From a virus, in IMG/VR virus record IMGVR_UViG_3300038679_000131, positions 1-64,000 of that record: 64,000 nucleotides of DNA. One strand, 5' to 3'. Every line of letters starts with the position of its first letter. Within the stretch, counting starts at the first letter, position 1. The notes under the pieces are model-generated. The model was not told the origin of the DNA. It did no database searches and was given only the letters and a program-made list of their open reading frames with translations. Both the position numbers and the translations under genes were made by a program. Positions 3 through 48,334 of this stretch are shown here, piece after piece.

Positions 3-2798
3 AGATATGATGAAGTAAATGCTTTAGGTATGGTTGTTGACAAAATTAAGTTAGCTACTCAAGGACAGATTTCTACTATTCAGATTGCACAGGAAATTCG
101 TTCATTGTTAAATGGTCAGGCTCGTACTACTGACCAGATAGCTTTACTCTTAAAAGATAAGTATGGTAAGGCATGGAAAGATATTGTAAATGACCATAGA
201 AAAGCAGGAGATTTGCTACAATGGTTAGCTGAAGAATGGGAAGGTTTAGCTGCTGCCCAAGAAAAAATAGAAAATACTCTTGAGGCTCAATCTACTAATT
301 TATGGACAATGATTAGAAGGGTTGGTCGTGAGGGATTGGGAGGAGCTTATCAGTATATTGTTGATGTTTTAAAAGACATTAATACTTATTTGATGGAGCA
401 GGAAGGAGTAATATCTAGTGGGATTCAGGCTGCTTGGTTGGCAATGGAACCTGCTATTTCTGCTATAGGTCTTGCTTTACAAGCTATGCTTTCTTATTTA
501 TGGGAAAATGGTGAAGCTATTGGTGCTATGGTCAGGTCAATATCAGATGTTATTGTTTGGGTTTTAGAGGCTACTCAGGCTGTAGCTGCTTGGGTTGCAG
601 AGCATAAATTGTTAGTATTAGCTGTTTTATCTGTTATAATGGCTTATAAAGGGGCTGTAATTCTTGGTGTTATTATAGCTTCTATAACTGCTGCATTTGC
701 AACTGCAACGGCTGCTGCAAATGCTTTTGCTGTATCTTTAGGATATGCTTCTATTGCTGCAATGGGATTAACAGCTTGTATTCCTGTTATTGGTATTATT
801 GTAGCAGTTCTCGGTGCTGCTGCTTTGGCAGCATATGGATTAGGTCAGAATCTTGATGCTGTTCTTGAAAAACAAAAAGCAGTACAATATGGAGCATCTA
901 GACTTTCACCGGAAAAAGTAAGAGAGGAATTTCAAGATAGAATAAGGTATTCTCCAAGTAAAATGGTAGAACTTGCATCCAAAGGTGCAGTTATTCCTAC
1001 TGAAAGAGGAGAACAAGAAGTTCAACAACAGATAAACAAAGTGAGAGAATTAGATACTGCAATAGAAATTTTAGGCAAGACAAAGGAGAAAAAACAACAG
1101 ACTGATGCTGTAGCTAATACTATGATGGGTGAGTATTCTGTTAATGTTGACTCTGCCGCAGGTACGGTAAAAAAACTTCATGAAGTGGAATCTGCAAGAA
1201 ATCAAGAGTTGGAAAAAGCTAGAAAATTAGCTAAAGAAAAAGGTTTTTTTATTGATGAAACTAAAAAAGGAGAATACAGGCTCCCAAGTGCTCTTGGTTA
1301 TGAAGACCTTACATTTTCTAGAAGACAGCAAGAAGAAGCAATCAAAAATTCATTAGAAGGTAAAAAATATTCAGAACGACCAGATGATGAAGGAAAAGGG
1401 GCAAAGGGAAAAGGTCCTGAGAGACTTTCCGATTGGCCTGCTATAAAGGCTGAGAGGGATGCAAAACTTCAGTTATTAAAGAATGAACTTAATGCAATTG
1501 AAAAGAATAATGAACTTGAGAAAGCTTCTAATGATAATAAGTATGCCCAAGGGATTCTCTCTGGTACTCAATATGCCCAAGCTATTCTTGATATGGAGGA
1601 AAGGTCTTATCAGGCCAGAGTTAAAATTATTCAACAAGAAATAGCAAATGAAAAAGAGGCTTATGCATTTAGAAAAGCTAATATAGAAAGTGAAGTTGAA
1701 CGAGGAGCATTGTCTCCTGACAAAGCTAAAATAGAATTAAGAAAAGCCCTTGCAGAACATACTAAAACTTTAACTATTAGAGAAAAGGAAATGTTTGATG
1801 CAGGAATTGAAAAAACTAAAGCTCTTACTGAAGCAACAAAAGACCTTATTGCAGCTAGAAAATCTATAGTTGATATATCTGCTAGTCTATTTCAAAAAAT
1901 AACTGGAGGACCTCTTACTGAACAGGCAAAACAATTACTTTCTATACGATTGGAATTTGTTGAATTGGCTAGACAGATTGATAAATTAAAAATTAATGCT
2001 GACGGAAAATTAGAAATTGACCCAGCTTTAGAAAAGTCTGCAAATTATATGATTGAGGCTGGAAGGTTACTCAATGCAGATTGGGCAGAGCCTTTAGCTC
2101 AAGCAGTTAGGGAATTAGCAGAAGCAAGGACAGGAGCAGAAGCAAGTGTAGCTCAACAAAAGATTAAAGAAATTTTACCCCAAGCCCAAAAAACAGTTGA
2201 ATTTGATGTAAAATATAAATCTCAAATAGATAGTTTTGTTAATGATATTACAAATGGTATTTCCTCTATAGTAGATGCTATGATGGATGGGGGGAAAGAT
2301 TTAAAGAAAGCAGCTAATAATATGTTCAGAGCTATTTTTAAAGATGCAATGAAACCTGGGCTTGATTTTCTAAAAGAAACTTTGACTAAAGGATTTGAGG
2401 ACTTATTTGGTGAAGTGGGTGGGGAAGTAGCTAGTGCCATTATGGGAGTTATTGGTATAATTGGAATGATGTTTACTTCAGGGAAAGGGGAAAAGTCTTT
2501 TTCTGCTGCTGGTGTTCAATCTGGAGTTACTTCTACTGAGCCGGTTAGAGGAATTATAGCAGGGCCAACTTCTATTCCTATTGCACAAATAAGTGTCAGT
2601 ATTCGAGAAGCCTTTGCTAATTCAGAAAGTTATTTAGCTGAAATAGCTGAAAACACTAGAGGGATCAGAGGAGGAATTTCTGGAGGAGGTACTAATCTTA
2701 ACATTTCAATGTTGGTTTCAGAGATCAAATCTTCAATTACTGGTGTAATGGATCAATATTTTAAAGATTATTTATTAACACAGGCGGCATTAAGATGA
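3..2798 (+). CDS. Tail tape measure protein, C-terminal part (5' truncated by window)
   Basis: Frame is open from base 3. Long Ala-rich helical protein with a hydrophobic TM-like block and coiled coil, directly upstream of tail genes. Confidence 0.85.
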   Translation, partial: RYDEVNALGMVVDKIKLATQGQISTIQIAQEIRSLLNGQARTTDQIALLLKDKYGKAWKDIVNDHRKAGDLLQWLAEEWEGLAAAQEKIENTLEAQSTNLWTMIRRVGREGLGGAYQYIVDVLKDINTYLMEQEGVISSGIQAAWLAMEPAISAIGLALQAMLSYLWENGEAIGAMVRSISDVIVWVLEATQAVAAWVAEHKLLVLAVLSVIMAYKGAVILGVIIASITAAFATATAAANAFAVSLGYASIAAMGLTACIPVIGIIVAVLGAAALAAYGLGQNLDAVLEKQKAVQYGASRLSPEKVREEFQDRIRYSPSKMVELASKGAVIPTERGEQEVQQQINKVRELDTAIEILGKTKEKKQQTDAVANTMMGEYSVNVDSAAGTVKKLHEVESARNQELEKARKLAKEKGFFIDETKKGEYRLPSALGYEDLTFSRRQQEEAIKNSLEGKKYSERPDDEGKGAKGKGPERLSDWPAIKAERDAKLQLLKNELNAIEKNNELEKASNDNKYAQGILSGTQYAQAILDMEERSYQARVKIIQQEIANEKEAYAFRKANIESEVERGALSPDKAKIELRKALAEHTKTLTIREKEMFDAGIEKTKALTEATKDLIAARKSIVDISASLFQKITGGPLTEQAKQLLSIRLEFVELARQIDKLKINADGKLEIDPALEKSANYMIEAGRLLNADWAEPLAQAVRELAEARTGAEASVAQQKIKEILPQAQKTVEFDVKYKSQIDSFVNDITNGISSIVDAMMDGGKDLKKAANNMFRAIFKDAMKPGLDFLKETLTKGFEDLFGEVGGEVASAIMGVIGIIGMMFTSGKGEKSFSAAGVQSGVTSTEPVRGIIAGPTSIPIAQISVSIREAFANSESYLAEIAENTRGIRGGISGGGTNLNISMLVSEIKSSITGVMDQYFKDYLLTQAALR

Positions 2799-3148
2799 CA
2801 AATCTAAATTTTTCAATGCAAAGTGTGTTATTCAGTATGTTTGGCGGGATAGAGAAGTTTGATTGTTGGCTTACACAAATAGCTGAAACCTTAGCAGATG
2901 TTAATAATCCACGAGTTAAACCAATTAAGTTGGATGAAAAGATGTTTCCGCCAATGGTACAAGGTTTGATGCGTAGACCTCACGAAGTAGTAGACGGTTT
3001 TTTAGAAATGTTAGAAGGAATTAATACTTGGGAATACAAAATAAAAGGGAATGGGGGATTATCACAAGTAATTGATATGGTAAGTGGTCATGTGATTGAA
3101 GAAGGAAATGAATCGGAATTAATAAAAAAATATGAAGGTAATAAATGA
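2795..3148 (+). CDS. Hypothetical protein
   Basis: 117 aa ORF with ATGA overlaps to both neighbours. Confidence 0.6.
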   Translation: MTNLNFSMQSVLFSMFGGIEKFDCWLTQIAETLADVNNPRVKPIKLDEKMFPPMVQGLMRRPHEVVDGFLEMLEGINTWEYKIKGNGGLSQVIDMVSGHVIEEGNESELIKKYEGNK

Positions 3149-4203
3149 CGACGCCTGCCGACATTCTTGTTGTTAATTTTGCTCCGAGAATTGGGGGAGG
3201 AGGAGTAATTACAGCTAAGGGTGATATGGAAGGACAGGCAGTTTATTGGGAATTAGTTTCTTATGATCCATTAACTGAATTAGAAGGAGCACCTTACGGA
3301 AGTTTAAGATGGCAAAGAACCAAAACGGATGCTTCTGCATTAACTGCTAATGTTTATCTTGCACCAACAGATCCAATACACGAAGGGAAAACTGATAGGG
3401 TTAAAGTTAAATATGTTCCTGAATTTGTGAGTTCAAGAAGCCCTTCACTTTCACCTTCAGCATCACTATCACCAAGTAAAAGTCCTAGTTTGTCTCCTAG
3501 TGCATCACCTAGTGTTCCTGGTCCTTCTTTCAGTCCAAGTCTCAGTCCAAGTCTATCCCCTTCTGTACCGGGTTCTATTTTCTTTGATGATTTTGAAGCT
3601 GGAAATTTGCACTTGTGGGATGAGGTATCTGGTGTAACAATTTCTACTGGTATGTCAGGTAGTTATTGTGCTGAAGTTCCTGCTGTCAATAATTATATCA
3701 AAGTGAAAATGAATTCTTTGATTGAGGTATATGCTTGTTTTAAAATTAATATTGAAGAAACTGATGGTGCAGTATTTAATTTTTATAATGATGATACTGT
3801 ATTAGGATTGTTACAAGCAGAACAAGTATGGGGTGAACCTACTAAAGCAGCTTTTACTTTTTATGTAGGTGAATGGGATGATTGGTTCTCTGATGAAGTA
3901 TATACTTTTGATAAAGGTGTTTCTTATGAAATAAAGATTTATTATCTTCCTCATGTATCAAATGGAAAAGTTATAGTAAAGGTTAATGAAGTTACAATAA
4001 TTAGTGAATCTGGTGTTCAGACAGCACCTTCTACATTACCTGTGAACAAGTTTGGGTATGGTGATGTTTTGTCAGATTATTGGTTGGGAGCTATTTTTAA
4101 AATTGATGATGTATTAGTTGAAACTACTTCTGGGCCTATGTCTCCTAGTATCAGTCCGAGTCTTTCCCCTAGTCTAAGCCCAAGTGTGAGTCCTTCATCA
4201 TGA
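3145..4203 (+). CDS. Tail/virion protein: Ig-like N-terminus, Ser-Pro linker, ConA/LamG-like beta-sandwich, Ser-Pro tail
   Basis: SPSLSPS repeats; 'IFFDDFEAG...IDDVLV' lectin-like domain boundaries; position after tape measure. Confidence 0.6.
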   Translation: MTTPADILVVNFAPRIGGGGVITAKGDMEGQAVYWELVSYDPLTELEGAPYGSLRWQRTKTDASALTANVYLAPTDPIHEGKTDRVKVKYVPEFVSSRSPSLSPSASLSPSKSPSLSPSASPSVPGPSFSPSLSPSLSPSVPGSIFFDDFEAGNLHLWDEVSGVTISTGMSGSYCAEVPAVNNYIKVKMNSLIEVYACFKINIEETDGAVFNFYNDDTVLGLLQAEQVWGEPTKAAFTFYVGEWDDWFSDEVYTFDKGVSYEIKIYYLPHVSNGKVIVKVNEVTIISESGVQTAPSTLPVNKFGYGDVLSDYWLGAIFKIDDVLVETTSGPMSPSISPSLSPSLSPSVSPSS

Positions 4204-5126
4204 TAGAGCTTATTTATACAAGTAATAAAATAACTGGTCTAACTCCTGCTTATGATTGGTTTATGTTATATGCTAACAGTCCAGATGCATTAATTATTTG
4301 TAATAATACTTATCTTTATAAAGTTTTTAGGGATGGGACAACTTGTTTTATAGGGAGAGTTTCTGATTGCAAAGCTATTTCTTTGAATGAAGGAAGAATT
4401 GGTTGGTATGACAACATACCAAGTAGGTCTACTTATCAAAGATTTTTATTATCCGATGAATTTGCATTTCAGCCACATTTTATGGAGATTATTAATCCAG
4501 ATTGGTTATTTCCTAGTGCTTATGGTTCTGATAAATCTTATATTGACTTGAACAAAAGGTTGTGGATTGGTTGGAGTAGTGGGTATCCCAAGCTACTTAA
4601 TTGCATAAATATTGATAGTGGGGAAGTAATTTGGACTGTGGATCTTGTTCCTTTGGGAACATCCTACCTTCCAATACATTATTTAAGTAAGGATTATGTT
4701 ATAGTTGTTGGTATAGGAGACACAGCTTACATTGTCAATATTGATACTGGAGTTTTAAAAGATACTTTTCAAATCCCAGTATGTTGGGGAAATGCGTATG
4801 ATTTTAACCATGGGTTGTTTATTACAATAGAAAGTGATCAAAAAGTTAGAGTTTACTTAGCTGATAGGTATCCTGCGAGTTTTAGTGCAGTCATATCAGA
4901 ATATGGTGTATTGCAAGCTTATAGAGGGTGTGATATTAAAGTTAGATTACTTAGTTCAAATAATTTGCCTTGTCCTGATAGATTAGTAACATGGGAACTT
5001 CCAAATTCTCTTGGTGCTTTAGAAAAGGTAGTATCTGAAACTGATATAGATGGTTATGCTTGGAATTACTATTATGGACCTACTGTAGCAGGTGGGACTG
5101 AGAAAATAAAGGTGAGTTGGGGATGA
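4200..5126 (+). CDS. Tail protein, beta-propeller-like plus C-terminal Big-1/invasin-like Ig domain
   Basis: Beta-rich repeats ('NIDSGEVIW', 'NIDTGVLK'); C-terminal 'VTW...SETDIDGYA'. Confidence 0.5.
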   Translation: MIELIYTSNKITGLTPAYDWFMLYANSPDALIICNNTYLYKVFRDGTTCFIGRVSDCKAISLNEGRIGWYDNIPSRSTYQRFLLSDEFAFQPHFMEIINPDWLFPSAYGSDKSYIDLNKRLWIGWSSGYPKLLNCINIDSGEVIWTVDLVPLGTSYLPIHYLSKDYVIVVGIGDTAYIVNIDTGVLKDTFQIPVCWGNAYDFNHGLFITIESDQKVRVYLADRYPASFSAVISEYGVLQAYRGCDIKVRLLSSNNLPCPDRLVTWELPNSLGALEKVVSETDIDGYAWNYYYGPTVAGGTEKIKVSWG

Positions 5127-25820: not shown

Positions 25821-27785
25821 CTATTTTGAAGTTTTTGCTGCATAACAAGCAAGGATTAGTCCTGGCTTTCCATTTCTATCAAATGGCTGAGAAAATTCAA
25901 ACATGATTTGAGCATGGGAAGAAACCCCAGAACTAAGTAAAGCTTTACTAAAATAACTAAGGACTGCAAGTCTTACTTTTTCAACATCTTCATCAATTCC
26001 ATTAATTATTTTAGCTACAGTTTTCCAATCTTCAGGACCATCTAAAGCCCTACATAAATCAATTACATTACTTTCTTCAGTATATTTTTGAACTACTTCA
26101 AGAGCGTCCTCTTCACTTTCAAGATTAATAACTTGACTAAGTAGGACTAATGCTTCTCTAGGAATTCCATTGGCATATTTGACAATTTCCCTCATTACAC
26201 CTGGCCAGATTTCTCTCCCTTCCTCTTTTAACACCCAACGTAATAAAGTTATCATTTCTTGTCTATTCAAAGTTTTAACTTGAAATTTGGTACAACGTGA
26301 TTTTAGAGTTCCTGTCAATTTTTCTGGATTAGTTGTGGCAAAGATAAAATAAACATGAGGAGGTGCACCATCTTCAGTTACTTTAAGTAAAGCTTCGGCA
26401 GCAGCACTGGTTATTTGATGGCAATTATGGACAAGAATATTATTTACATAGTAAGACGGGTGATTGCTTATTTGTAAATCATAAAAAGTTATAAATCCTT
26501 TATTCTCTCCTGTATCATTTTCAATACCATAGGTAGATACTCCACCACTTCTTTGTTGGAGAATCTCAATACTTTCCACCCTAACTCCGACAGCTTTTCC
26601 TCTTTCTTTTTGTCCTTCAATGAAACTTTTTTCGACCGGTGACAACGACCATCTATTTCTATTGCAACTTTCAATTTCCGATTCCCTACATCTACTTTGT
26701 AACAGTTTGGAAATCCTACCTGTTGCGGTTTTATTGAGATTGGTACTTCCATTTCCCAACCTAACGCAAGTGCAAGGGTTTTCTGAGGAATTGTAAGGTG
26801 TCCATTCCCACCCCGAGTTCCTGAGAAGGTATTCAAAGTTTGATTCATCCTTTTCGTGGTCATCATCTTTTCGATATTTTCTTCTTTGTGCATCGGGTTG
26901 TTTTTCTTCATTCTTTCTGAATTTTCTTCTTTCAATTCCTTCCAAAGAGAAGGATTCTCCTCTTTCAATCTTAGTCGCCCATTTGATATTGCCTTGGACC
27001 TTTCCGGAGTATATATCTTCTTCCACTCTGGTTGTTTGTTTCTCCATTTCCCTACACAACTCTGACAACAAAATCTTACTTTTTTTCTTTTTGGGAGAAA
27101 CATTTCTTTGCACTCTTGGCATGGTTTCTCTTCCATTATTTTCATCTCCTTGTAATTTGATGTCTCTCAGTGTATTACAAGGCAAATCAAAAAGCAAATC
27201 ATTTTTTGTCAGAAAAATTGCTTCCTTCCAACCTAAATTGGTAAGGAATAAATGTTCTTTTGAACAAACAACATTTATTCCATTTATAAATTTTATTTTT
27301 ACAATCCTTTCAAAAGGAACTTTATTTTTAAAAACTTTCTTAACTTTTCCTCTTCCAATAAGATTAAAAACTTCTTCTCCTTCTTCAATATCTTCAATTG
27401 GTTTAGTTCCAGAACAAGTGCTTACTAGTGTTCCAGAAGCAAAACACTCATCATAGAAATAAATTCTTGATTTCCCACCTTCTCCCATAGGTGCATAAGA
27501 GCATTGAGAAACATCTTCTCGAATAGTCTCAATTCCTCTAGTATTAGCTGCGTTTCTTTCTTTAAAGTCTACATCATGACATTGTAAAAGGGTTTTTAAA
27601 ATCCTAGCAAACGTAGTTTTTCCGGATCCTTTTTCCCCTGTGAAAAGAAAAGTATGTTCCCTTTCTTTTGGAGGTTTTGCTATGATGGATTGCAATGACA
27701 TTACAATTTCATCATTGCCAATTATTTCATCAAGAGATTGTGGTCGGTATTTTATGTAAAGTGGACCGGACAACCTTTTAATCAT
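25821..27785 (-). CDS. dnaX: Clamp loader (DnaX/RFC-like) with intein
   Basis: 'KYRPQSLDEIIG', 'GEKGSGKTT', 'DE|CH', 'FATT', 'SRC'. Confidence 0.88.
   Translation of the reverse strand: MIKRLSGPLYIKYRPQSLDEIIGNDEIVMSLQSIIAKPPKEREHTFLFTGEKGSGKTTFARILKTLLQCHDVDFKERNAANTRGIETIREDVSQCSYAPMGEGGKSRIYFYDECFASGTLVSTCSGTKPIEDIEEGEEVFNLIGRGKVKKVFKNKVPFERIVKIKFINGINVVCSKEHLFLTNLGWKEAIFLTKNDLLFDLPCNTLRDIKLQGDENNGRETMPRVQRNVSPKKKKSKILLSELCREMEKQTTRVEEDIYSGKVQGNIKWATKIERGESFSLEGIERRKFRKNEEKQPDAQRRKYRKDDDHEKDESNFEYLLRNSGWEWTPYNSSENPCTCVRLGNGSTNLNKTATGRISKLLQSRCRESEIESCNRNRWSLSPVEKSFIEGQKERGKAVGVRVESIEILQQRSGGVSTYGIENDTGENKGFITFYDLQISNHPSYYVNNILVHNCHQITSAAAEALLKVTEDGAPPHVYFIFATTNPEKLTGTLKSRCTKFQVKTLNRQEMITLLRWVLKEEGREIWPGVMREIVKYANGIPREALVLLSQVINLESEEDALEVVQKYTEESNVIDLCRALDGPEDWKTVAKIINGIDEDVEKVRLAVLSYFSKALLSSGVSSHAQIMFEFSQPFDRNGKPGLILACYAAKTSK
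26424..27446 (-). mobile_element. Intein (341 aa) in the clamp loader Walker B
   Basis: Starts CFASGT, block B 'CSKEHLF', ends 'YDL...LVHN' before +1 Cys. Confidence 0.92.
26489..27136 (-). CDS. Nested out-of-frame DUF559/Vsr-like endonuclease with N-terminal Zn finger
   Basis: Own RBS AGGAG 9 nt before ATG; 'CQEC..FCCQSC', 'YKVD', 'AIEIDGRCH', 'D..K...L..LGWKVLRF'. Confidence 0.82.
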   Translation of the reverse strand: MEEKPCQECKEMFLPKRKKVRFCCQSCVGKWRNKQPEWKKIYTPERSKAISNGRLRLKEENPSLWKELKEENSERMKKNNPMHKEENIEKMMTTKRMNQTLNTFSGTRGGNGHLTIPQKTLALALGWEMEVPISIKPQQVGFPNCYKVDVGNRKLKVAIEIDGRCHRSKKVSLKDKKKEEKLSELGWKVLRFSNKEVVEYLPMVLKMIQERIKDL

Positions 27786-27795
27786 TTTGATTCTC

Positions 27796-28371
27796 CTATT
27801 GTGTATCAAGATGTTTCCAAGTGTGCCCTCTATTTATATCACCAATGCAATCTCTACTTACACCAAAAATATTTCCTATTTCTCTATAAGAAAATACCTT
27901 TTTAGAAAGGAGACCTTTGATTTTCAAAACTTCTTCTTCTTTTAATATAGAAAAAGGGTTTTCTTCTCCTTTCATTTGCACAGGCTCTCTCATTCCTATT
28001 TCATAGGAATGTTTGATATTTTCACTTCGTGTCACCCATTCAAGATTTCCTACTTTATTTTTGGTATAATTTCCATCTTTATGGTTACATTCACAATTCT
28101 CAGGACAAGGTCCTACAAAAGTCTCAAGGACCAATCTATGAACCTGCATCATCTTTGTTTTATAACTTGAAATATATAATAGAACTACTAGACGACCACT
28201 ATTATTCACAGCAGGTTTTAGTAGTCTTCCTTTCTTCCTACTTATTTCTCCATATCTTCCTGGTTTTGAATCTGTGGCTCTCCTTACTCTTCCTAGGGAA
28301 GATATTTCATAATCAGTATAGATAGGATGAACTCTCCAATCTTCCTTTTCACGTTGTTTTAATCTTGACAT
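27796..28371 (-). CDS. NUMOD4-HNH homing endonuclease
   Basis: 'YEISSLGRVR', 'VHRLV..FVG', 'NHKDG...N...NLEW'. Confidence 0.9.
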   Translation of the reverse strand: MSRLKQREKEDWRVHPIYTDYEISSLGRVRRATDSKPGRYGEISRKKGRLLKPAVNNSGRLVVLLYISSYKTKMMQVHRLVLETFVGPCPENCECNHKDGNYTKNKVGNLEWVTRSENIKHSYEIGMREPVQMKGEENPFSILKEEEVLKIKGLLSKKVFSYREIGNIFGVSRDCIGDINRGHTWKHLDTQ

Positions 28372-28407: not shown

Positions 28408-28590
28408 TTAAATTCCTCCTATTTGGATATGTATATAAACCTCTTCCCAACTCCAAATATAAGAATATTTTGGAATATATGCTGACTTATAGCATTTATA
28501 ACTACGACAGGACTTACAATAACCATTCTTAGTTTGATTATGAAAACGCAGTCTAGGTAATGGTTTTACTCTACCCTTTCTATATCTCAT
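28408..28590 (-). CDS. Small basic Cys protein
   Basis: RBS AGGAGG; overlaps the polymerase stop. Confidence 0.45.
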   Translation of the reverse strand: MRYRKGRVKPLPRLRFHNQTKNGYCKSCRSYKCYKSAYIPKYSYIWSWEEVYIHIQIGGI

Positions 28591-31100
28591 TTTTCCTCCT
28601 TTTTAATTTCGATGAGTTTTCCATCAATTAAATTCTGTTTTTTCATAATGGCCCAGCTTCCATTTATTTCAGACAAAGAAAATTCAGATAGAAGAGGAAT
28701 ATGAATCCAATCAAATCTCTCCCTAGTTTTTTTAGTCATAACATCTTCTGTAACTTGAGCAATATGATTTACCTCATTTGGCATAGCATCCTGCAAGATT
28801 TCATCGTGTATCTGAGCAACCATTTGACTTTTCCATTTTTCTTTAGTTTGAATCTTTCCAATTTCATCAAGACTCCATAAAAGAAGGTGAAAAGCAGCAC
28901 TTTGAATTGGATAATTAGCAATCATATTTCTAGTCATTAAGCCAGTAAATTTAAAACCAAATTTAGTTTCAACTTCTCCAGTTTTGTTATAATGATGGGT
29001 AACTCTTTCTAACCACTCTTTTGAATAGGAATACTTATTCCAAAACTTATCTTCTCCTTGTTTTACTTTCGATTCAGTAAGATGTGTGTACCCTCTTTTA
29101 ACAAATTCTTTATAAATACTTTTGTAATATGATCCATAGATAAGAGGAAATACAAAAGCGTTTTTAGCATCATACCTTGAAACATTGAAAAATTCTCCCC
29201 ATTCTCCGTGCATATCTTGATCTTTTTCAAGATACTTTGTCAATACAGGGTCTTTAGTATAACAACACCAAATTCTTACTTCCATTGAACCGTAATCAGC
29301 AGCAAGAAATTGTCTATCTACTGAAGGAATTATTCCTGATCTGATAATTCGTTTTGCTTCTTCATCATGTTTTGGCACGTTTTGGAAGTTGGGAGAATCA
29401 CTAGAAGAACGAAGTGTCTTTGCTCTGTGGAGGTTAAATGAAGGATGAATCCTGTCATTTTTGTCAATTAAAAACAAGTAATTTGCTAAATAATCTTTAA
29501 TCTTTTTAAGCCTACGGTGACTGACAATTTTTTGTGCAAATGGATTGTTCATCCCCAACAATACTTCTGCATCAGCAGAAAGTTTCTTTCCACTTGTAGT
29601 TTGTTTTATTCCTTTCAATTTCATAATATCAAACAAAACAATGCGAATGTCGTCCGGAGATTCAATATTTATTTCTTTTCCTTTCTTAGTTTTAAAAGAC
29701 ATACACTCAGGCATTGTCTTGATTTCTTTTTCAATATCTGTCATTTCTCCTTCTAATGCTTCATGTTCATCCTTACAATAAAAAGCATTAATATTTATTC
29801 CTACCCTTTCCAGTTTAGCCATGTTTACAATACCTCTTTGAAAGAAGGCATCAGCATTTCTTAATTCTCCAATTAATCTCTGAGTAGGAACTAAACGTCT
29901 AGTAAACATTGCATCCATAGCATTGTATTGACCTATTTTATAATAAGGCAATTTAGTCATACTATTAAAATGAAAACCTTTCTTTGGTTTTTTATAAGGA
30001 GCAACTTCAGTATCATAACCGTAAGTTCCAAAATTAATATAGGTCTGAAAGTTTAGATTGACATAATTATCTCTTGTATCAATGACGTGGGCACGAAGTA
30101 AAGTATCTGCATACCACAACTCACTAGTGTCCCCAAATCTACTTTGATTCCAGGATTCTTCCATAGGAACAGAATGAGCAATCAATAGCTGTTCATTAAA
30201 TAAAACATTTTCTTGCCATAGTTTTTTAATAGTTTCTTTCTGACTTGTCGTCCAGTGTCCCGGGTATTCATAAGGAAAAGCATAAGCGGATTGACCATCA
30301 AAAGAAACAGCCATAGTAAGAAGTAAATTTCCATCCCAATATGGTCTAAGTGCATTTGTTTCATAATCAATTGCCCTTGGTCCATATATAGTCCTGAATG
30401 ACTTCAACAATGTTACAGCATCATCAAAACGTGAAATTACCGTAACTTTGCTCTTTTCATTATTAAAGACCGGCGGTTTAAAGCTCAGACAGCTTACTAC
30501 CCAACGCATATCATTAACAAATATCTCTTTAGCATCAGGGTTTCTTGTGAAATAAGAGGGATGGACAATAGGAAGAACCCAAGCATTTGTATCAGGATCA
30601 GGAATACAAAGCCTGCGATAGCGTCCTATTGTATACGGTCTAAAATCAGACCATTTCCTATCCCCGTAGAATGATTCTATAGCAGTACCACCTGCAAGAA
30701 TTATAAATTGAGGATTCTTTTCTTTTATTAATGCCTTTTGAATAGGACGACAATATTCAATTTCTTTAGGAGTTGGTGTACGATTACTGCCTTTTTCATC
30801 AGTGGGTCGGCAATTAATAGCATTAATCTTCCAGAAATCTTTCTCAAGATCAATTCCAAACTTTTGTAAAGTTTCTCTAACAATTGTTCCTGATTCACCA
30901 ATTAATTGGATCCCTAATTCATCTTCTTTGGAGCCCGGAGCTTCAGCAATCAAAAGAGTGTTTAATCTGCCTTCTCCTGTATAATTCATTTTTGGAGAAT
31001 GACATTTTTTGTGTAATCCACAAGCAGAACAATTTGCTTCTCCAATTGTAGGTGCAGTATTTCCTAAAGTGAAGAAGGGTTTGATAATTCTATTGTTCAT
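28587..31100 (-). CDS. Family A DNA polymerase with N-terminal family-4 UDG domain and 3'-5' exonuclease
   Basis: 'C..C.L', 'AEAPG', 'HPS' (UDG4); 'DYET'; 'SSDSPNFQN', 'ADYGSMEVR', 'NYPIQS', 'QIHDE'. Confidence 0.93.
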   Translation of the reverse strand: MNNRIIKPFFTLGNTAPTIGEANCSACGLHKKCHSPKMNYTGEGRLNTLLIAEAPGSKEDELGIQLIGESGTIVRETLQKFGIDLEKDFWKINAINCRPTDEKGSNRTPTPKEIEYCRPIQKALIKEKNPQFIILAGGTAIESFYGDRKWSDFRPYTIGRYRRLCIPDPDTNAWVLPIVHPSYFTRNPDAKEIFVNDMRWVVSCLSFKPPVFNNEKSKVTVISRFDDAVTLLKSFRTIYGPRAIDYETNALRPYWDGNLLLTMAVSFDGQSAYAFPYEYPGHWTTSQKETIKKLWQENVLFNEQLLIAHSVPMEESWNQSRFGDTSELWYADTLLRAHVIDTRDNYVNLNFQTYINFGTYGYDTEVAPYKKPKKGFHFNSMTKLPYYKIGQYNAMDAMFTRRLVPTQRLIGELRNADAFFQRGIVNMAKLERVGININAFYCKDEHEALEGEMTDIEKEIKTMPECMSFKTKKGKEINIESPDDIRIVLFDIMKLKGIKQTTSGKKLSADAEVLLGMNNPFAQKIVSHRRLKKIKDYLANYLFLIDKNDRIHPSFNLHRAKTLRSSSDSPNFQNVPKHDEEAKRIIRSGIIPSVDRQFLAADYGSMEVRIWCCYTKDPVLTKYLEKDQDMHGEWGEFFNVSRYDAKNAFVFPLIYGSYYKSIYKEFVKRGYTHLTESKVKQGEDKFWNKYSYSKEWLERVTHHYNKTGEVETKFGFKFTGLMTRNMIANYPIQSAAFHLLLWSLDEIGKIQTKEKWKSQMVAQIHDEILQDAMPNEVNHIAQVTEDVMTKKTRERFDWIHIPLLSEFSLSEINGSWAIMKKQNLIDGKLIEIKKEEK

Positions 31101-45583: not shown

Positions 45584-48334
45584 TTAGTTTTTATTATTTT
45601 TTCTTTTTACTAAACGGCTTCCAAGATAAGGCTGTCCACATTGTAATTGAGAAAGGGCTATGAGTTCTTTTCCTGGCTGCATTTCTGTCCATCTATCAGC
45701 AATTTTACCAATTCTCATTACCCTTTGTTCATAATCTGTCTCGTTTTGATTGAGAGTAATACAAATATCCATATGAGCAATTATCTGTACATACCCTGCT
45801 GTGTGGCTAATTTTTAAGTGTTCAGAATCCCCTCCTTTTCTATCAGTTTGAAGGGGAGCAATAAAAAGAACTTGCTTTTCTTCAGCAATCCTTTTAATTG
45901 TTTTCCAAGTCTCTCCAAAAGCAGAATATTCTTTACTTGTTTCCCTTTCTTCTTTTAGAATAGCTGGGTAATCTAAAACAATTACATCTGGAATAAAATC
46001 TTCCCGCCATTCTAAAACATCAATGTCATTGATAATTTGTGTTAAATTAGCCGAAAACATTGGATAACATAAAAATCTAACATTGTTCTTTCCATGCATT
46101 AAATGGAAGTTTTTTATCTTCTTAGTAAGTTTTTGAGAATCTATTCCTTTTTTGTGGTAGGAATGTAAAGAAATAGTTAAATCCAATCCTTCTTTTACTT
46201 TACAAATGTCACAAGGGATATATCCTTGTTCACCATATTTTACATCACAAATTCGACTTGTTTTTTTGCAGGTATTGTATTTATTTTTAGAGCAGTCAAA
46301 GAAAGGAAATTCGTAATTTCCATCTTTTTCTGGGAAGCATCCTAGCTGTTGCCAAAATCTTTTGACTAGTTTTTTATAGGGCATTTCTAAAGAAATGAAT
46401 ACCACTCTTAATCTTTCTTCTAAGGCTGTTATAAGGAAATTTTGAGCCCACCAGGTGTTGTGGGCGATAATGTCGTTAGAAACGAAATTATGGGTTTCAG
46501 AAATAGATAAGTCATAAGTCTGTTCCATTCCCATATCTATTATAGATTCAATTTTATCCCAAAGGATATCAGAGTTTGCAATTGATATTAATTCTTGGTC
46601 TTTTAGGAAGTCTCCAATTTCTTTTACAGTAGATCGGGAAACCCTTTCTTTATTTCTTATTATACGGGATATTCTTGATGTAAATGGATTAATAGATTTA
46701 TAAAAGGACCATATTTGTTTATTAACCATAATTTGTTTAATTCTTTCTGCTAATTCTGTAGGGAAGCTATCAGCAGTTCTTCCATAAAGTTTAAGACTAT
46801 TAGAAGACGAAAGTAAATCAATGGCTTTTTCTTGTTTTGAAAAAATGAATCCTATTTCATTTATAAAGGTTATGACATTTTCTTTGTCTCCGAAAAGGAT
46901 TTGATAATTTGAATTTTTAGTTGTTTTCTTTTTACTTATCTTACCTATAATTCCAAATCTTAATAGGAGATGCTGTACTTGATGGATTAATTTTTTACTT
47001 GCTGAAGCATATCCTATTACTACACCGGTCTTGCTTTTCCAGATTGTACCATCACAAGTGAATAAAACAGAAAGGAATAATTTTAGATTATCTTTGGTTA
47101 AAGAAAATACAATCTCAGGAATTTCTTTTTTTTCTGATTTTACCAATTTGGTTTTTATTTCTTTTAACCAGGTCTTTGTTTTAGTAGGAATTGAACTAAG
47201 TTTTTCTTGGTCTTTTTTTATTCTTAATGTTATTTCTTCTGTAGTTTCTGAGGTAGTGTCACCCATTAATTTAATCATGGAGGAAAAATCTTCCCTTATC
47301 TTTTTCTCTCCATTGGTAAAACAAATATTTCCAGAGCCAATCATTCCTTCAGCTAAAAGATATGATAATATTTTAATCTTGTATTCAGGCCATTCTACTG
47401 TTCCAAAGAAATCAATTTTTCTTGGTACAGCAATAAAATCACTAAGGGATAAATCTTTTACCTCTTTCCAACCTTTGTAAGTAAGAAGTGGATGATTAAG
47501 TGTAATTTTTATTTCTCTTCCTGTTTTAGTTTTTATTTTGATAACAGGTTTTTCTCCATTCTTCCAAAAATCTGCAACTGTTCCTTTAATTAATTTCCCA
47601 TCTTTTGATAAGGTTACAATATTTTTCTCTTTGTCCTTAATGACATCAATCAATTTTTTTACTCTTCCATCGGAGAGAAGAATTTCATTATCTCCGGTTA
47701 AGCACTTCCCTCTCTTTTGACTACCTAATATTCCTAATACGTACCCCCTATGGAGAGGACCAATAAAACTCCCAAGAGGTTCTGGCATAGTTAGAAGTGG
47801 TGTTTTGTCATCTTCTAAACAGCTAAGGGCAAAAGACAAATTACATGGATCTAAAGAAGGAACATTTTTAATTGTGGCCTTTTGACTCCTAGCCACTGCT
47901 GCTTCTGCCGCACTTATAGCAGCCATATCTCCATTACTACTTTCTAAGATGAGGGAGGCTTCTTTTATTCCTAATAGAAAGCTTTGTTTTTTTAAATAAA
48001 CCTCAGCTTGTTTTTGGAGATAGTCTTCATTAGGGGGATTTTCAAGGTATTGTTCTGAGAGGGTTTTGAGAAATTCTTCAATATCTAGTGCATCTTCTGG
48101 GTTAAGTTCACTCCTTTCCGCCAGGTAGATTTCCTGAATGTCTTTCCCTGGAGCACGATTGTATAAACTATAATAATCTTTAATCCATTTGGAGATTTTC
48201 TGTCCAACATTTAGTTGGAATAGTTTTGGGTCTATCAGAGATTTTAATGCATGGTTTATTTTGTCTGAGGTGATGAAACCTATAAGAACTTGTTTTTCTA
48301 TATCTTTGTTGACAACACGGCGTCGCAGTCTCAT
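45584..48334 (-). CDS. dnaB: Replicative DnaB-like helicase with intein
   Basis: 'GSQKRGK|T' Walker A, 'ISLEM', 'VIVLDY', 'Q..R'. Confidence 0.88.
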   Translation of the reverse strand: MRLRRRVVNKDIEKQVLIGFITSDKINHALKSLIDPKLFQLNVGQKISKWIKDYYSLYNRAPGKDIQEIYLAERSELNPEDALDIEEFLKTLSEQYLENPPNEDYLQKQAEVYLKKQSFLLGIKEASLILESSNGDMAAISAAEAAVARSQKATIKNVPSLDPCNLSFALSCLEDDKTPLLTMPEPLGSFIGPLHRGYVLGILGSQKRGKCLTGDNEILLSDGRVKKLIDVIKDKEKNIVTLSKDGKLIKGTVADFWKNGEKPVIKIKTKTGREIKITLNHPLLTYKGWKEVKDLSLSDFIAVPRKIDFFGTVEWPEYKIKILSYLLAEGMIGSGNICFTNGEKKIREDFSSMIKLMGDTTSETTEEITLRIKKDQEKLSSIPTKTKTWLKEIKTKLVKSEKKEIPEIVFSLTKDNLKLFLSVLFTCDGTIWKSKTGVVIGYASASKKLIHQVQHLLLRFGIIGKISKKKTTKNSNYQILFGDKENVITFINEIGFIFSKQEKAIDLLSSSNSLKLYGRTADSFPTELAERIKQIMVNKQIWSFYKSINPFTSRISRIIRNKERVSRSTVKEIGDFLKDQELISIANSDILWDKIESIIDMGMEQTYDLSISETHNFVSNDIIAHNTWWAQNFLITALEERLRVVFISLEMPYKKLVKRFWQQLGCFPEKDGNYEFPFFDCSKNKYNTCKKTSRICDVKYGEQGYIPCDICKVKEGLDLTISLHSYHKKGIDSQKLTKKIKNFHLMHGKNNVRFLCYPMFSANLTQIINDIDVLEWREDFIPDVIVLDYPAILKEERETSKEYSAFGETWKTIKRIAEEKQVLFIAPLQTDRKGGDSEHLKISHTAGYVQIIAHMDICITLNQNETDYEQRVMRIGKIADRWTEMQPGKELIALSQLQCGQPYLGSRLVKRKNNKN
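46457..47704 (-). mobile_element. Intein (416 aa) with in-frame LAGLIDADG endonuclease
   Basis: CLTGD start, 'T.NHP', 'YLLAEG' and 'LFTCDG', ends 'IAHN' before Thr; P-loop insertion. Confidence 0.93.

What the first reader, a model, noticed from the sequence alone, without database searches (positions are those of the whole stretch)
26424..27446. Intein whose homing endonuclease is hidden in a different reading frame
Seen: the 341 aa clamp-loader intein has normal splicing ends, but its central ~215 residues have no nuclease motifs. The +1 frame of the same DNA encodes a Zn-finger plus DUF559/Vsr-like endonuclease with its own SD (AGGAG, 9 nt before ATG 27136) and stop (26489). Both frames stay open for more than 200 codons in AT-rich DNA, which implies dual-coding selection. 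The DnaB intein, by contrast, has a conventional in-frame LAGLIDADG. Inference: a free-standing nuclease gene invaded a mini-intein and is translated independently. Out-of-frame nucleases in phage insertion elements have some precedent, but standard annotation misses them.
Basis: partly seen in the sequence, partly recalled or inferred. Interest (0 to 1): 0.8.

Follow-up and report, generated by a model that had tools for sequence, protein, structure and literature searches.

The report
Intein with out-of-frame homing endonuclease gene
A phage clamp-loader gene carries a self-splicing protein insert (an intein), and the middle of that insert also encodes, one base out of step, a complete DNA-cutting "homing" enzyme; the layout is real, under selection and typical of a large phage-borne family, but the kind was already described in 2025-2026 preprints.

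Summary
The minus-strand ORF 27809-25821 is a phage DnaX-like clamp loader. A 341-aa class-1 intein (27446-26424) splits it straight after the Walker B Asp-Glu.

The +1 frame holds a 218-aa ORF (27145-26489): a zinc ribbon, a helical region and a DUF559/Vsr-like nuclease, with AGGAG 9 nt before ATG 27136.

Synonymous shuffling of the nuclease codons predicts 11.4 stops in the host frame; none is seen. The third frame has 26 stops against 23 expected.

The same +1 nesting is found in all 80 IMG/VR relatives fetched, in three cultured-phage records, and in 61 of 64 fuller-length relatives in prokaryote assemblies. In every nested case the element sits behind Walker B of a clamp loader or helicase.

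Conservation follows the nuclease frame. The in-frame middle is predicted to be disordered. The intein's closest solved relative is gp41-1, a split intein of the "fractured genes". Three close relatives of this phage carry intein-less alleles (DE|AHQ).

Splicing, translation of the nested ORF and cleavage are inferred, not shown.

Out-of-frame intein endonucleases were reported by the Gogarten laboratory in 2025-2026, so this is a new variant of a known kind. Earlier notes of this scan record the same layout in at least 16 other genomes.

The parts
25821..27809 (-). Clamp-loader (DnaX-like) precursor ORF, 662 aa including the intein. The true start may be the ATG 8 codons in (MIKRLSG...).
   Evidence: phrog_5846 'clamp loader of DNA polymerase' E 1.2e-54; Pfam DNA_pol3_delta2 E 1e-13. 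Relatives L084-L086 align from that region.
27447..27809 (-). N-extein, ending in Walker B ...YFYDE.
   Evidence: Walker A G-G-K and Walker B D-E are invariant in 44 host proteins.
26424..27446 (-). Intein, 341 aa, read in the host frame (Cys1 ... His340-Asn341, followed by Cys+1).
   Evidence: C1, H65, H340 and N341 are invariant in 40 relatives.
27162..27446 (-). N-terminal splicing (Hint) subdomain, intein residues 1-95, with blocks A (CFxxxT) and B (S-K-E-H65).
   Evidence: AlphaFold2 pLDDT 82-96. The family profile matches the gp41-1 intein at E 6e-19 over this part.
26595..27161 (-). Host-frame linker, intein residues about 96-284. It is kept free of stops but has no fold or family of its own.
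   Evidence: pLDDT is below 50 for residues 106-266. No Pfam or PHROG hit. Identity to relatives is 26%, the same as the closed third frame at 25%.
27148..27182 (-). Hairpin (9-bp stem CCUUGUAAU/AUUACAAGG) that pairs the first bases of the SD of the nested ORF.
   Evidence: SD pairing probability is 0.81 against 0.49 with shuffled upstream sequence (1 of 30 shuffles as high). Similar hairpins with different sequences occur in about half of 21 relatives. Suggestive only.
27146..27150 (-). Shine-Dalgarno AGGAG of the nested ORF, 9 nt before ATG 27136.
   Evidence: Strong SD motifs sit 6-9 nt before the first ATG in most close relatives.
26489..27145 (-). Nested +1-frame ORF, 218 aa (215 aa if translation starts at ATG 27136); the coordinates include the stop codon. 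Predicted homing endonuclease.
27056..27121 (-). Zinc ribbon of the nuclease (CxxC ... CCxxC, residues 9-30).
   Evidence: C9, C12, C26 and C30 are invariant or nearly invariant. Weak matches to YacG- and MYM-type zinc fingers.
26501..26791 (-). Vsr-like / DUF559 nuclease core (residues 119-215), with D152, E163, D165, H169 and D178.
   Evidence: Pfam DUF559. Profile hits 3hrl at E 9e-13 and I-Bth0305I (3r3p) at E 2.7e-4. Foldseek top hits are 3r3p, 3hrl and Vsr 1cw0.
26492..26590 (-). True double-coding stretch: nuclease residues 186-218 (LGWKVLRFSN...) over intein residues 287-319 (VRVESIEIL...).
   Evidence: The intein strand E287-295 belongs to the Hint model. All three codon positions are more conserved here (0.68/0.78/0.54) than in the rest of the overlap (0.54/0.58/0.38).
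26424..26594 (-). C-terminal splicing subdomain (intein residues 285-341, blocks F and G, ...SYYVNNILVHN).
   Evidence: pLDDT is about 95 for residues 318-341. Aligns to the gp41-1 C-terminal block.
25821..26423 (-). C-extein, starting at Cys+1 (CHQITSAAAEALLKV...).
   Evidence: It is 79-85% identical to the intein-less alleles L084-L086, which read AHQIT....

Best explanation
This is a mobile composite element: a class-1 intein plus an overlapping homing-endonuclease gene.

Ribosomes reading the clamp-loader frame make a 662-aa precursor. The two ends of the insert (residues 1-95 and about 285-341) fold into a Hint domain. About 190 disordered residues in between act only as a tether. The insert then excises itself and joins ...YDE to CHQ..., which restores the Walker B region.

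Separately, ribosomes start at AGGAG/ATG 27136 in the +1 frame of the same mRNA. They make a 215-aa protein: a zinc ribbon, a helical DNA-binding part and a Vsr-like nuclease. In a mixed infection this enzyme is expected to cut the unoccupied Walker-B site of an intein-less clamp-loader allele (...TATGATGAA|GCCCATCAA...). Recombinational repair then copies the intein, the nuclease gene and the Cys+1 codon into that allele.

The host frame across the nuclease gene is held open purely by synonymous codon choice in the nuclease.

**Shown:** frames, homology, folds, selection, family-wide conservation of the layout, and presence/absence polymorphism. **Inferred:** splicing, independent translation, and cleavage specificity.
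For: - **Layout and families:**
- **Host frame kept open by codon choice:** in the window, 0 stops against 11.4 expected, with 0 of 400 shuffles open. Across 70 distinct loci, 0 stops against 658 expected in total. The third frame has 19.3 stops observed against 17.8 expected per locus.
- **Selection acts on the nuclease frame:**
  - Mean identity to the window is 40% in the nuclease frame, 26% in the host frame and 25% in the third frame.
  - Pairwise nucleotide identity by nuclease codon position is 0.56/0.61/0.40. That is the coding pattern seen for the host frame in the N-splicing domain, 0.48/0.59/0.34.
  - All 20 invariant residues of 26 relatives are kept.
- **Folds:**
  - The nuclease model has pLDDT 91.3. 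Its best matches are I-Bth0305I, DUF559 3hrl and Vsr.
  - The in-frame intein model has confident Hint ends and a middle with pLDDT below 50. Its best matches are gp41-1 and other inteins.
- **Family-wide layout:**
  - The nuclease is +1-nested inside a long ORF reading DE|C...HN|C/S in 80 of 80 IMG/VR loci, in 3 of 3 phage records (Vibrio phages CP-T1 and K391, Corynebacterium phage phi673) and in 61 of 64 prokaryote-assembly loci.
  - Hosts are clamp loaders, SNF2 helicases and ResIII/DEAD helicases.
- **Translation signals:** an SD-like motif plus start codon is present in 52 of 70 loci, against 11% at control start-like codons.
- **Mobility:**
  - Intein-less alleles are 79-85% identical in the C-extein.
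  - Intein-bearing clamp loaders are only 37-43% identical to the window in the C-extein.
Against: - No experiment exists. Splicing, translation of the nested ORF and cleavage are untested, and the phage is an uncultivated IMG/VR record.
- The window's intein scores below the Pfam gathering cut-off for Intein_splicing (29.6 against 35.8 bits), although relatives reach E 1.7e-21.
- Foldseek E-values for the nuclease are modest (1.5e-3).
- The codon-position test used an alignment built on the nuclease protein, which favours that frame.
- The SD control is generous to the test set, because the first start codon with an SD was picked among several candidates.
- No close intein donor is in the databases, so gain cannot be told from precise loss.
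Confidence: 0.85

Rival explanations
1. The nested ORF in this phage is a relic. The intein now behaves as a mini-intein with a long junk tether, and the nuclease is no longer made or no longer active.
For: - The homing cycle predicts decay once an element is fixed (discussed in the paper read).
- No sigma-70-like promoter above chance lies near the ORF.
- The nearest relative is only about 50% identical, so recent constraint on this particular copy cannot be measured.
Against: - There is no stop in 218 codons at 31-39% G+C.
- All 20 family-invariant residues are kept, including D152, E163, D165, H169 and D178.
- The model has pLDDT 91.
- The SD and ATG are intact.
- Intein-less alleles still circulate in close relatives, so targets exist.
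Confidence: 0.08
2. The nuclease is not started independently. It is made by a programmed +1 ribosomal frameshift as an N-extein / N-intein / nuclease fusion.
For: - Both ORFs are on one mRNA and always in the same relative frame.
- One metagenomic protein, P0109, is exactly such an in-frame fusion of Walker B, the N-splicing domain and the nuclease C-half.
Against: - In the window the nuclease frame opens only 7 codons before the first ATG (27166), leaving almost no room for a shift site.
- A strong SD sits 6-9 nt before the first ATG in most close relatives.
- The zinc ribbon starts right after that ATG.
- Free-standing relatives start at the equivalent point.
Confidence: 0.04
3. The nuclease is expressed, but it serves the phage (competition with co-infecting relatives, or host-DNA attack) and does not only drive homing.
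For:
- Intein-less and intein-bearing alleles coexist in close relatives, as expected if cutting the rival allele gives an advantage.
Against: - This is not exclusive of homing, because cutting the vacant allele gives both effects.
- The nuclease tree follows the host-gene class (7 label changes against 29.2 in shuffles). That fits site-specific homing better than general DNA attack.
Confidence: 0.08
4. Assembly or sequencing artefact: a normal in-frame endonuclease intein displaced by two compensating indel errors.
For: The window is a metagenome-derived virus record.
Against: - The host frame is open throughout and needs no correction.
- The same frame relation is found in more than 140 independent loci, including cultured phages.
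- The nuclease has its own start, and its own stop lies inside the C-splicing domain.
Confidence: 0.01

Closest known systems
[quoted passage not shown]
   Same: The host is also a clamp-loader (DnaX) gene. The intein is contiguous, with a disordered in-frame middle. A sense-strand overlapping ORF with SD motifs encodes the endonuclease, and purifying selection follows the endonuclease frame. Intein-free and intein-bearing alleles coexist.
   Different: There the enzyme is a LAGLIDADG protein in the +2 frame, in cellular genomes of one phylum. Here it is a Vsr-like/DUF559 enzyme with a zinc ribbon in the +1 frame, in phages. The intein family also spans several host-gene classes. The Spirulina DnaX mini-intein is only a distant structural match (rank 34).
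Non-canonical actinobacteriophage inteins (Gosselin, Arsenault and Gogarten, bioRxiv 10.1101/2025.01.02.630785)
   Same: Contiguous inteins in which the homing endonuclease lies outside the intein frame. The same origin is proposed (a free-standing endonuclease gene invading an intein), with the same warning that annotation misses such elements.
   Different: Their VSR-like endonucleases are antisense, and their sense-strand out-of-frame case is an endonuclease VII-like enzyme in frame 3. Their hosts are polymerase, minor capsid, terminase and thymidylate synthase genes of actinophages. A sense-strand +1 Vsr-like nuclease at Walker B of clamp loaders and helicases is not among them.
'Fractured genes': split inteins with a free-standing Vsr-like or GIY-YIG endonuclease gene between the halves (Dassa et al. 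2009, PMC2677866), including the gp41-1 split intein
   Same: The nuclease belongs to the same superfamily. The gene order on one strand is the same. The 3' end of the endonuclease gene overlaps the start of the C-intein coding region (6-69 bp there, about 100 nt here). RNA hairpins lie over the endonuclease start. gp41-1 is the closest solved relative of this intein (E 6e-19; Foldseek E 3.4e-7, 32% identity).
   Different: There the host frame is broken into two genes and splicing occurs in trans. Here the host frame runs through the endonuclease gene, so the intein is contiguous and should splice in cis.
I-Bth0305I, prototype of the EDxHD (Vsr-like) homing endonucleases (Taylor et al. 2011, PMC3239194)
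   Same: A Vsr-like catalytic domain at the C-terminus behind a DNA-binding N-terminal part. It is the best structural match. The profile aligns H169 to its mutated His213, and the Asp-to-His spacing of 17 residues is the same (D152/H169 against D196/H213).
   Different: It is encoded in a group I intron of a phage recA gene, uses NUMOD motifs where this protein has a zinc ribbon, and is only remotely similar in sequence (E 2.7e-4 with a family profile).
ShiLan insertion with a hidden out-of-frame HNH endonuclease in phage methylase genes (Arsenault et al. 2025, PMC11855218)
   Same: An insertion that stays open in the host frame while another frame encodes the endonuclease.
   Different: That element has no splicing domain and an HNH enzyme. 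Here the intein blocks are all present.

Membership tests
Class-1 intein (Hint fold) | Block A: Cys/Ser as the first residue | tested here: met
   Cys1 (CFASGT). C1, F2 and T6 are invariant in 40 relatives.
Class-1 intein (Hint fold) | Block B: T/S-x-x-H | tested here: met
   S62-K-E-H65. H65 is invariant, and Ser or Thr sits three residues before it in every row shown.
Class-1 intein (Hint fold) | Block G: His-Asn at the end, followed by Cys/Ser/Thr in the extein | tested here: met
   H340-N341|C. H340 and N341 are invariant, and the +1 residue is Cys or Ser across the family.
Class-1 intein (Hint fold) | Hint fold formed by the N- and C-terminal parts | tested here: met
   The AlphaFold2 ends have pLDDT above 90. 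Foldseek gives 34 intein/Hint matches at E <= 0.001, led by gp41-1. The family profile matches gp41-1 at E 6e-19. Pfam Intein_splicing on the window copy alone is below its cut-off.
Class-1 intein (Hint fold) | In-frame insertion at a conserved site, with homologues that lack it exactly | tested here: met
   L084, L085 and L086 read ...YFYDEAHQIT... with no insert.
Class-1 intein (Hint fold) | Protein splicing activity | not testable with these tools
   Needs expression of the precursor.
Vsr-like / EDxHD (DUF559) homing endonuclease | Sequence membership of the Vsr/DUF559 nuclease family | tested here: met
   Pfam DUF559, 45.6 bits against a cut-off of 20.6. There are 166 homologues, nearly all with PF04480 on record. 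The profile hits 3hrl at E 9e-13 and I-Bth0305I at E 2.7e-4.
Vsr-like / EDxHD (DUF559) homing endonuclease | Vsr-type fold | tested here: met
   Foldseek top hits are 3r3p, 3hrl and 1cw0, with probability 0.95-1.0 but E only 1.5e-3 to 4e-2.
Vsr-like / EDxHD (DUF559) homing endonuclease | Conserved catalytic Asp, His and acidic residues | tested here: met
   D152, E163, D165, H169 and D178 are invariant in 26 relatives. H169 aligns to position 213 of I-Bth0305I, and the Asp-His spacing is the same. The equivalence of D152 and D196 rests on that spacing, not on an aligned column.
Vsr-like / EDxHD (DUF559) homing endonuclease | Cuts the element-free allele of its host gene | not testable with these tools
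   The candidate site is known from L084-L086.
Inteins with the endonuclease in an overlapping alternative frame (Gogarten-laboratory preprints 2025-2026) | Contiguous intein frame plus a complete endonuclease ORF in another frame with its own start | tested here: met
Inteins with the endonuclease in an overlapping alternative frame (Gogarten-laboratory preprints 2025-2026) | Constraint follows the endonuclease frame, and the in-frame middle is unstructured | tested here: met
   A formal dN/dS for overlapping genes could not be done, because close pairs have too few changes.
Fractured gene with split intein (Dassa et al. 2009) | Host gene broken into two ORFs by the endonuclease gene | tested here: not met
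   The host frame is open across the whole element in the window and in all nested relatives. The element is a relative of this arrangement, not a member.

The most novel reading that the evidence does not exclude
The window is one member of a large, old and so far undescribed intein lineage. The lineage is specialised on the Walker-B Asp-Glu of clamp loaders and SF2 helicases. Its Vsr-like homing endonuclease has stayed in the +1 frame through divergence down to 30% identity.

Under this reading the lineage is the contiguous counterpart, either ancestor or descendant, of the gp41-1-type 'fractured genes'. One stop in frame 0 would convert one form into the other. The SD-sequestering hairpin inside the translated host frame would couple nuclease synthesis to translation of the host gene.
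Probability: 0.4. Interest if true: 0.7.

Novelty: new variant of a known kind. Interest (0 to 1): 0.55.

Why it matters
- **Annotation.** Gene callers and intein surveys score these elements as decaying or mini-inteins and miss the nuclease. The cultured phages CP-T1, K391 and phi673 are annotated simply as 'helicase' at this place.
- **Prevalence.** The preprints call out-of-frame intein endonucleases rare, with few broadly distributed examples. Here one family alone gives 263 viral and 216 prokaryote-assembly matches, and nearly all the fuller-length copies inspected have the same frame layout.
- **Evolution.** The link to gp41-1 ties contiguous inteins to split inteins. It offers a concrete test of the model that free-standing endonuclease genes invade inteins and can break them.
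- **Tools.** gp41-1 relatives and Vsr-like nucleases are both used or proposed as protein-ligation and gene-targeting tools.

Tried and rejected
- blastn of the gene against phage records gave no match.
- The search for related loci with the single nuclease protein found nothing. An alignment query was needed.
The contexts of the 166 database proteins, including the in-frame fusion P0109, could therefore not be fetched.
- Codon-position counting on near-identical pairs gave only 5 changes in the overlap, too few for dN/dS.
- The promoter and terminator scan gave nothing above chance near the nested ORF.
- The 120-nt fold around the start has a z-score of only -1.0. The local SD-pairing test is better, but it holds in only about half of 21 relatives, so the hairpin is reported as suggestive.
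- Nucleotide identity near the insertion site against the intein-less alleles showed no clear co-conversion tract.
- Gorbalenya 1998 ('Non-canonical inteins') is not in the searchable library. It is cited only as quoted by the preprints.
- Frameshift fusion, relic and artefact readings were considered and are scored as rival explanations.
Full report
**1. Observation**

On the minus strand, ORF 27809..25821 (662 aa) reads ...SRIYFYDE|CFASGTL......ILVHN|CHQITSAAAE....
- The flanks are a phage clamp loader: phrog_5846 E 1.2e-54 and Pfam DNA_pol3_delta2 E 1e-13.
- The 341-aa insert (27446..26424) hits only Hint and intein-splicing models.
- A second ORF, 27145..26489 (218 aa), lies wholly inside the insert. 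It starts 664 nt (3x221+1) after the host start, so it is in the +1 frame.
- AGGAG (27150-27146) lies 9 nt before ATG 27136.
- G+C here is 31-39%.

That includes the contrast with the window's other intein. That intein is in the DnaB-like ORF 45584..48334 and has an in-frame LAGLIDADG_3 domain.

**2. The nested protein**

- It passes the Pfam DUF559 cut-off (45.6 against 20.6 bits).
- It has 166 homologues in the large protein collection, up to 50% identical over 98% of its length.
- In an alignment of 26 of them, 20 columns are invariant, and the window protein has every one: two Cys of a zinc ribbon, N83-P84, R111-G-G, Y149, D152, E163, D165, G166, H169, D178, K181, G189-W190, R194-F195 and N197.
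- AlphaFold2 gives pLDDT 91.3.
- The best structural matches are the catalytic domain of the homing endonuclease I-Bth0305I (3r3p), the DUF559 protein 3hrl, and E. coli Vsr.
- The family profile finds 3hrl at E 9e-13 and 3r3p at E 2.7e-4. H169 sits on the position mutated in that crystal (His213), and the Asp-to-His spacing of 17 residues is the same.

**3. The in-frame intein**

- Forty relatives share Cys1, the block-B His (S-K-E-H65 here) and the terminal His-Asn, followed by Cys or Ser.
- The AlphaFold2 model has confident ends: residues 1-95, strand 287-295 and residues 318-341. Residues 106-266 have pLDDT below 50.
- Foldseek returns 34 inteins or Hint domains at E <= 0.001.
- By both structure and profile, the best match is gp41-1, with 32% identity in Foldseek and profile E 6e-19. 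gp41-1 is a split intein from the 'fractured genes' of Dassa et al. 2009.

**4. More than chance**

- *Shuffle test.* I kept the nuclease protein and its codon usage and shuffled synonymous codons.
  - The host frame then has a mean of 11.4 stops and was open in 0 of 400 trials; the real sequence has none.
  - The third frame has 26 stops against 23.0 expected.
  - Over 70 distinct loci the host frame has 0 stops against 658 expected in total.
- *Identity by frame.* Identity to the window over the same nucleotides is 40% in the nuclease frame, 26% in the host frame and 25% in the closed third frame.
- *Codon periodicity.* Nucleotide identity by nuclease codon position is 0.56/0.61/0.40. That is the usual coding pattern, and it matches what the host frame shows in the N-splicing domain (0.48/0.59/0.34).
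- *The last 33 nuclease codons.* They overlie the Hint strand VRVESIEIL and are more conserved at all three positions, 0.68/0.78/0.54.

So over most of the overlap, frame 0 is selected only to stay open. The few conserved frame-0 residues (LQSR, RxRW) sit over the nuclease motifs YKVD and EIDG.

**5. This is the normal state of a large family**

- *Cultured phages.* tblastn of the nuclease against phage records hits 40 records. In the listed records the match lies under an annotated helicase or P-loop protein. In Vibrio phages CP-T1 and K391 and Corynebacterium phage phi673, the match is +1 to a helicase ORF that reads DE|CF...VHN|CHH.
- *IMG/VR.* A profile scan gave 263 confirmed relatives. 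In all 80 loci fetched, the nuclease ORF lies inside a 640-2200-aa ORF in the same relative frame, and the third frame is closed.
- *Prokaryote assemblies.* A scan gave 216 relatives. Of the 64 fetched matches that reach beyond the catalytic core, 61 are nested the same way. L109, L143 and L150 are free-standing; in L143 and L150 the gene lies just upstream of a helicase gene with an intact Walker B motif (DECHH in L143, DESHH in L150). The 16 matches to generic DUF559 proteins (mostly Brevundimonas) sit in no long ORF and no intein.
- *Host proteins.* Of 44 hosts scanned, 10 match the clamp-loader model DNA_pol3_delta2, 16 SNF2-rel_dom and 10 ResIII. Four carry a DNA methylase domain (N6_N4_Mtase). 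Walker A, Walker B D-E and the intein's C-F are invariant columns.
- *Tree.* A quick nuclease tree groups by host class, with 7 label changes against 29.2 in shuffles. A few placements suggest host switches. The window falls in the clamp-loader group.

**6. Expression signals**

- An SD-like motif before a start codon of the nuclease frame is present in 52 of 70 loci, against 11% for control start-like codons. Most close relatives have AGGAG or GGAGG 6-9 nt before the first ATG.
- In the window the nuclease frame opens only 7 codons before its ATG.
- A 9-bp hairpin (27182-27148) pairs part of the SD. Similar hairpins with different sequences occur in about half of 21 relatives. This recalls the start-site hairpins of endonuclease genes in fractured genes. 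I rate it as suggestive.

**7. Mobility**

- Three IMG/VR contigs (L084-L086) carry clamp loaders 79-85% identical to the window's C-extein. They have no insert and read ...YFYDEAHQIT....
- The intein-bearing clamp loaders are only 37-43% identical to the window in the C-extein.
- The element is therefore patchy relative to its host gene, as expected for gain by homing or for precise loss. The data cannot say which.

**8. Mechanism**

The mechanism is as stated under the best explanation. Frames, homology, folds, selection and polymorphism are shown. Splicing, an internal translation start and cleavage of the vacant Walker-B site are inferred from what is established for class-1 inteins and for I-Bth0305I.

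**9. Comparison with the literature**

- Gosselin et al. cite Gorbalenya 1998 for LAGLIDADG endonucleases encoded on the antisense strand of inteins. Phillips et al. cite the same paper for endonuclease homologues in alternative reading frames of the dnaX intein.
- Actinophage inteins have antisense LAGLIDADG, antisense VSR-like, and sense-strand frame-3 endonuclease VII-like genes.
- The cyanobacterial dnaX intein has a +2 LAGLIDADG ORF.
- Vsr-like endonucleases are known from split-intein fractured genes and group I introns.
- I found no paper describing a sense-strand +1 Vsr-like nuclease in a contiguous intein, this Walker-B family, or its tie to gp41-1. The library lacks most subscription journals, so this is weak evidence of absence.
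- Earlier notes of this scan report the same layout in at least 16 other genomes, with the same conclusion. My results were obtained independently and agree.

**10. Verdict**

This is a new variant of a known kind. Interest is 0.55: a specialist would not be surprised by the principle, but the breadth of the family, its fixed frame, the short true double-coding stretch and the link to split inteins are worth a study.

Noticed in passing
window 27796-28371 (-): A free-standing HNH_3 + NUMOD4 endonuclease gene (191 aa) lies between the DNA polymerase and clamp-loader genes. Its 3' end overlaps the longest clamp-loader ORF start by 14 nt.
   Followed up: partly
window 45584-48334 (-): A DnaB-like helicase (phrog_19) with a conventional intein carrying an in-frame LAGLIDADG_3 domain.
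   Followed up: partly
protein P0109 (372 aa, metagenome contig of 2047 nt): Walker B, the N-splicing domain and the C-half of the nuclease are in ONE frame and end at the nuclease stop. This could be a frameshifted copy, a fractured-gene form, or a step towards an in-frame endonuclease.
   Followed up: no
L143:1714-2163 and L150:3001-3453: Free-standing relatives of the nuclease sit immediately upstream of a helicase gene whose Walker B is uninterrupted (DECHH in L143, DESHH in L150). This looks like the state before invasion of an intein, or like intein-less homing next to the target.
   Followed up: partly
L047 vs L050 (host ORF 1755-4670): There are 50 nucleotide differences in the 2916-nt host ORF, but only 1 falls in the roughly 515 nt of the overlap counted. 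Either the double constraint is at work, or the element transferred recently between diverged hosts.
   Followed up: no
L001 (Vibrio phage CP-T1), L002 (K391), L003 (Corynebacterium phage phi673): In these cultured phages the same intein-plus-nested-nuclease element is annotated only as 'putative helicase' or 'DNA helicase'. Neither the intein nor the 212-263-aa nuclease ORF is annotated.
   Followed up: yes
window 28587-31100 (-): A family A DNA polymerase with an N-terminal uracil-DNA-glycosylase-superfamily domain.
   Followed up: no
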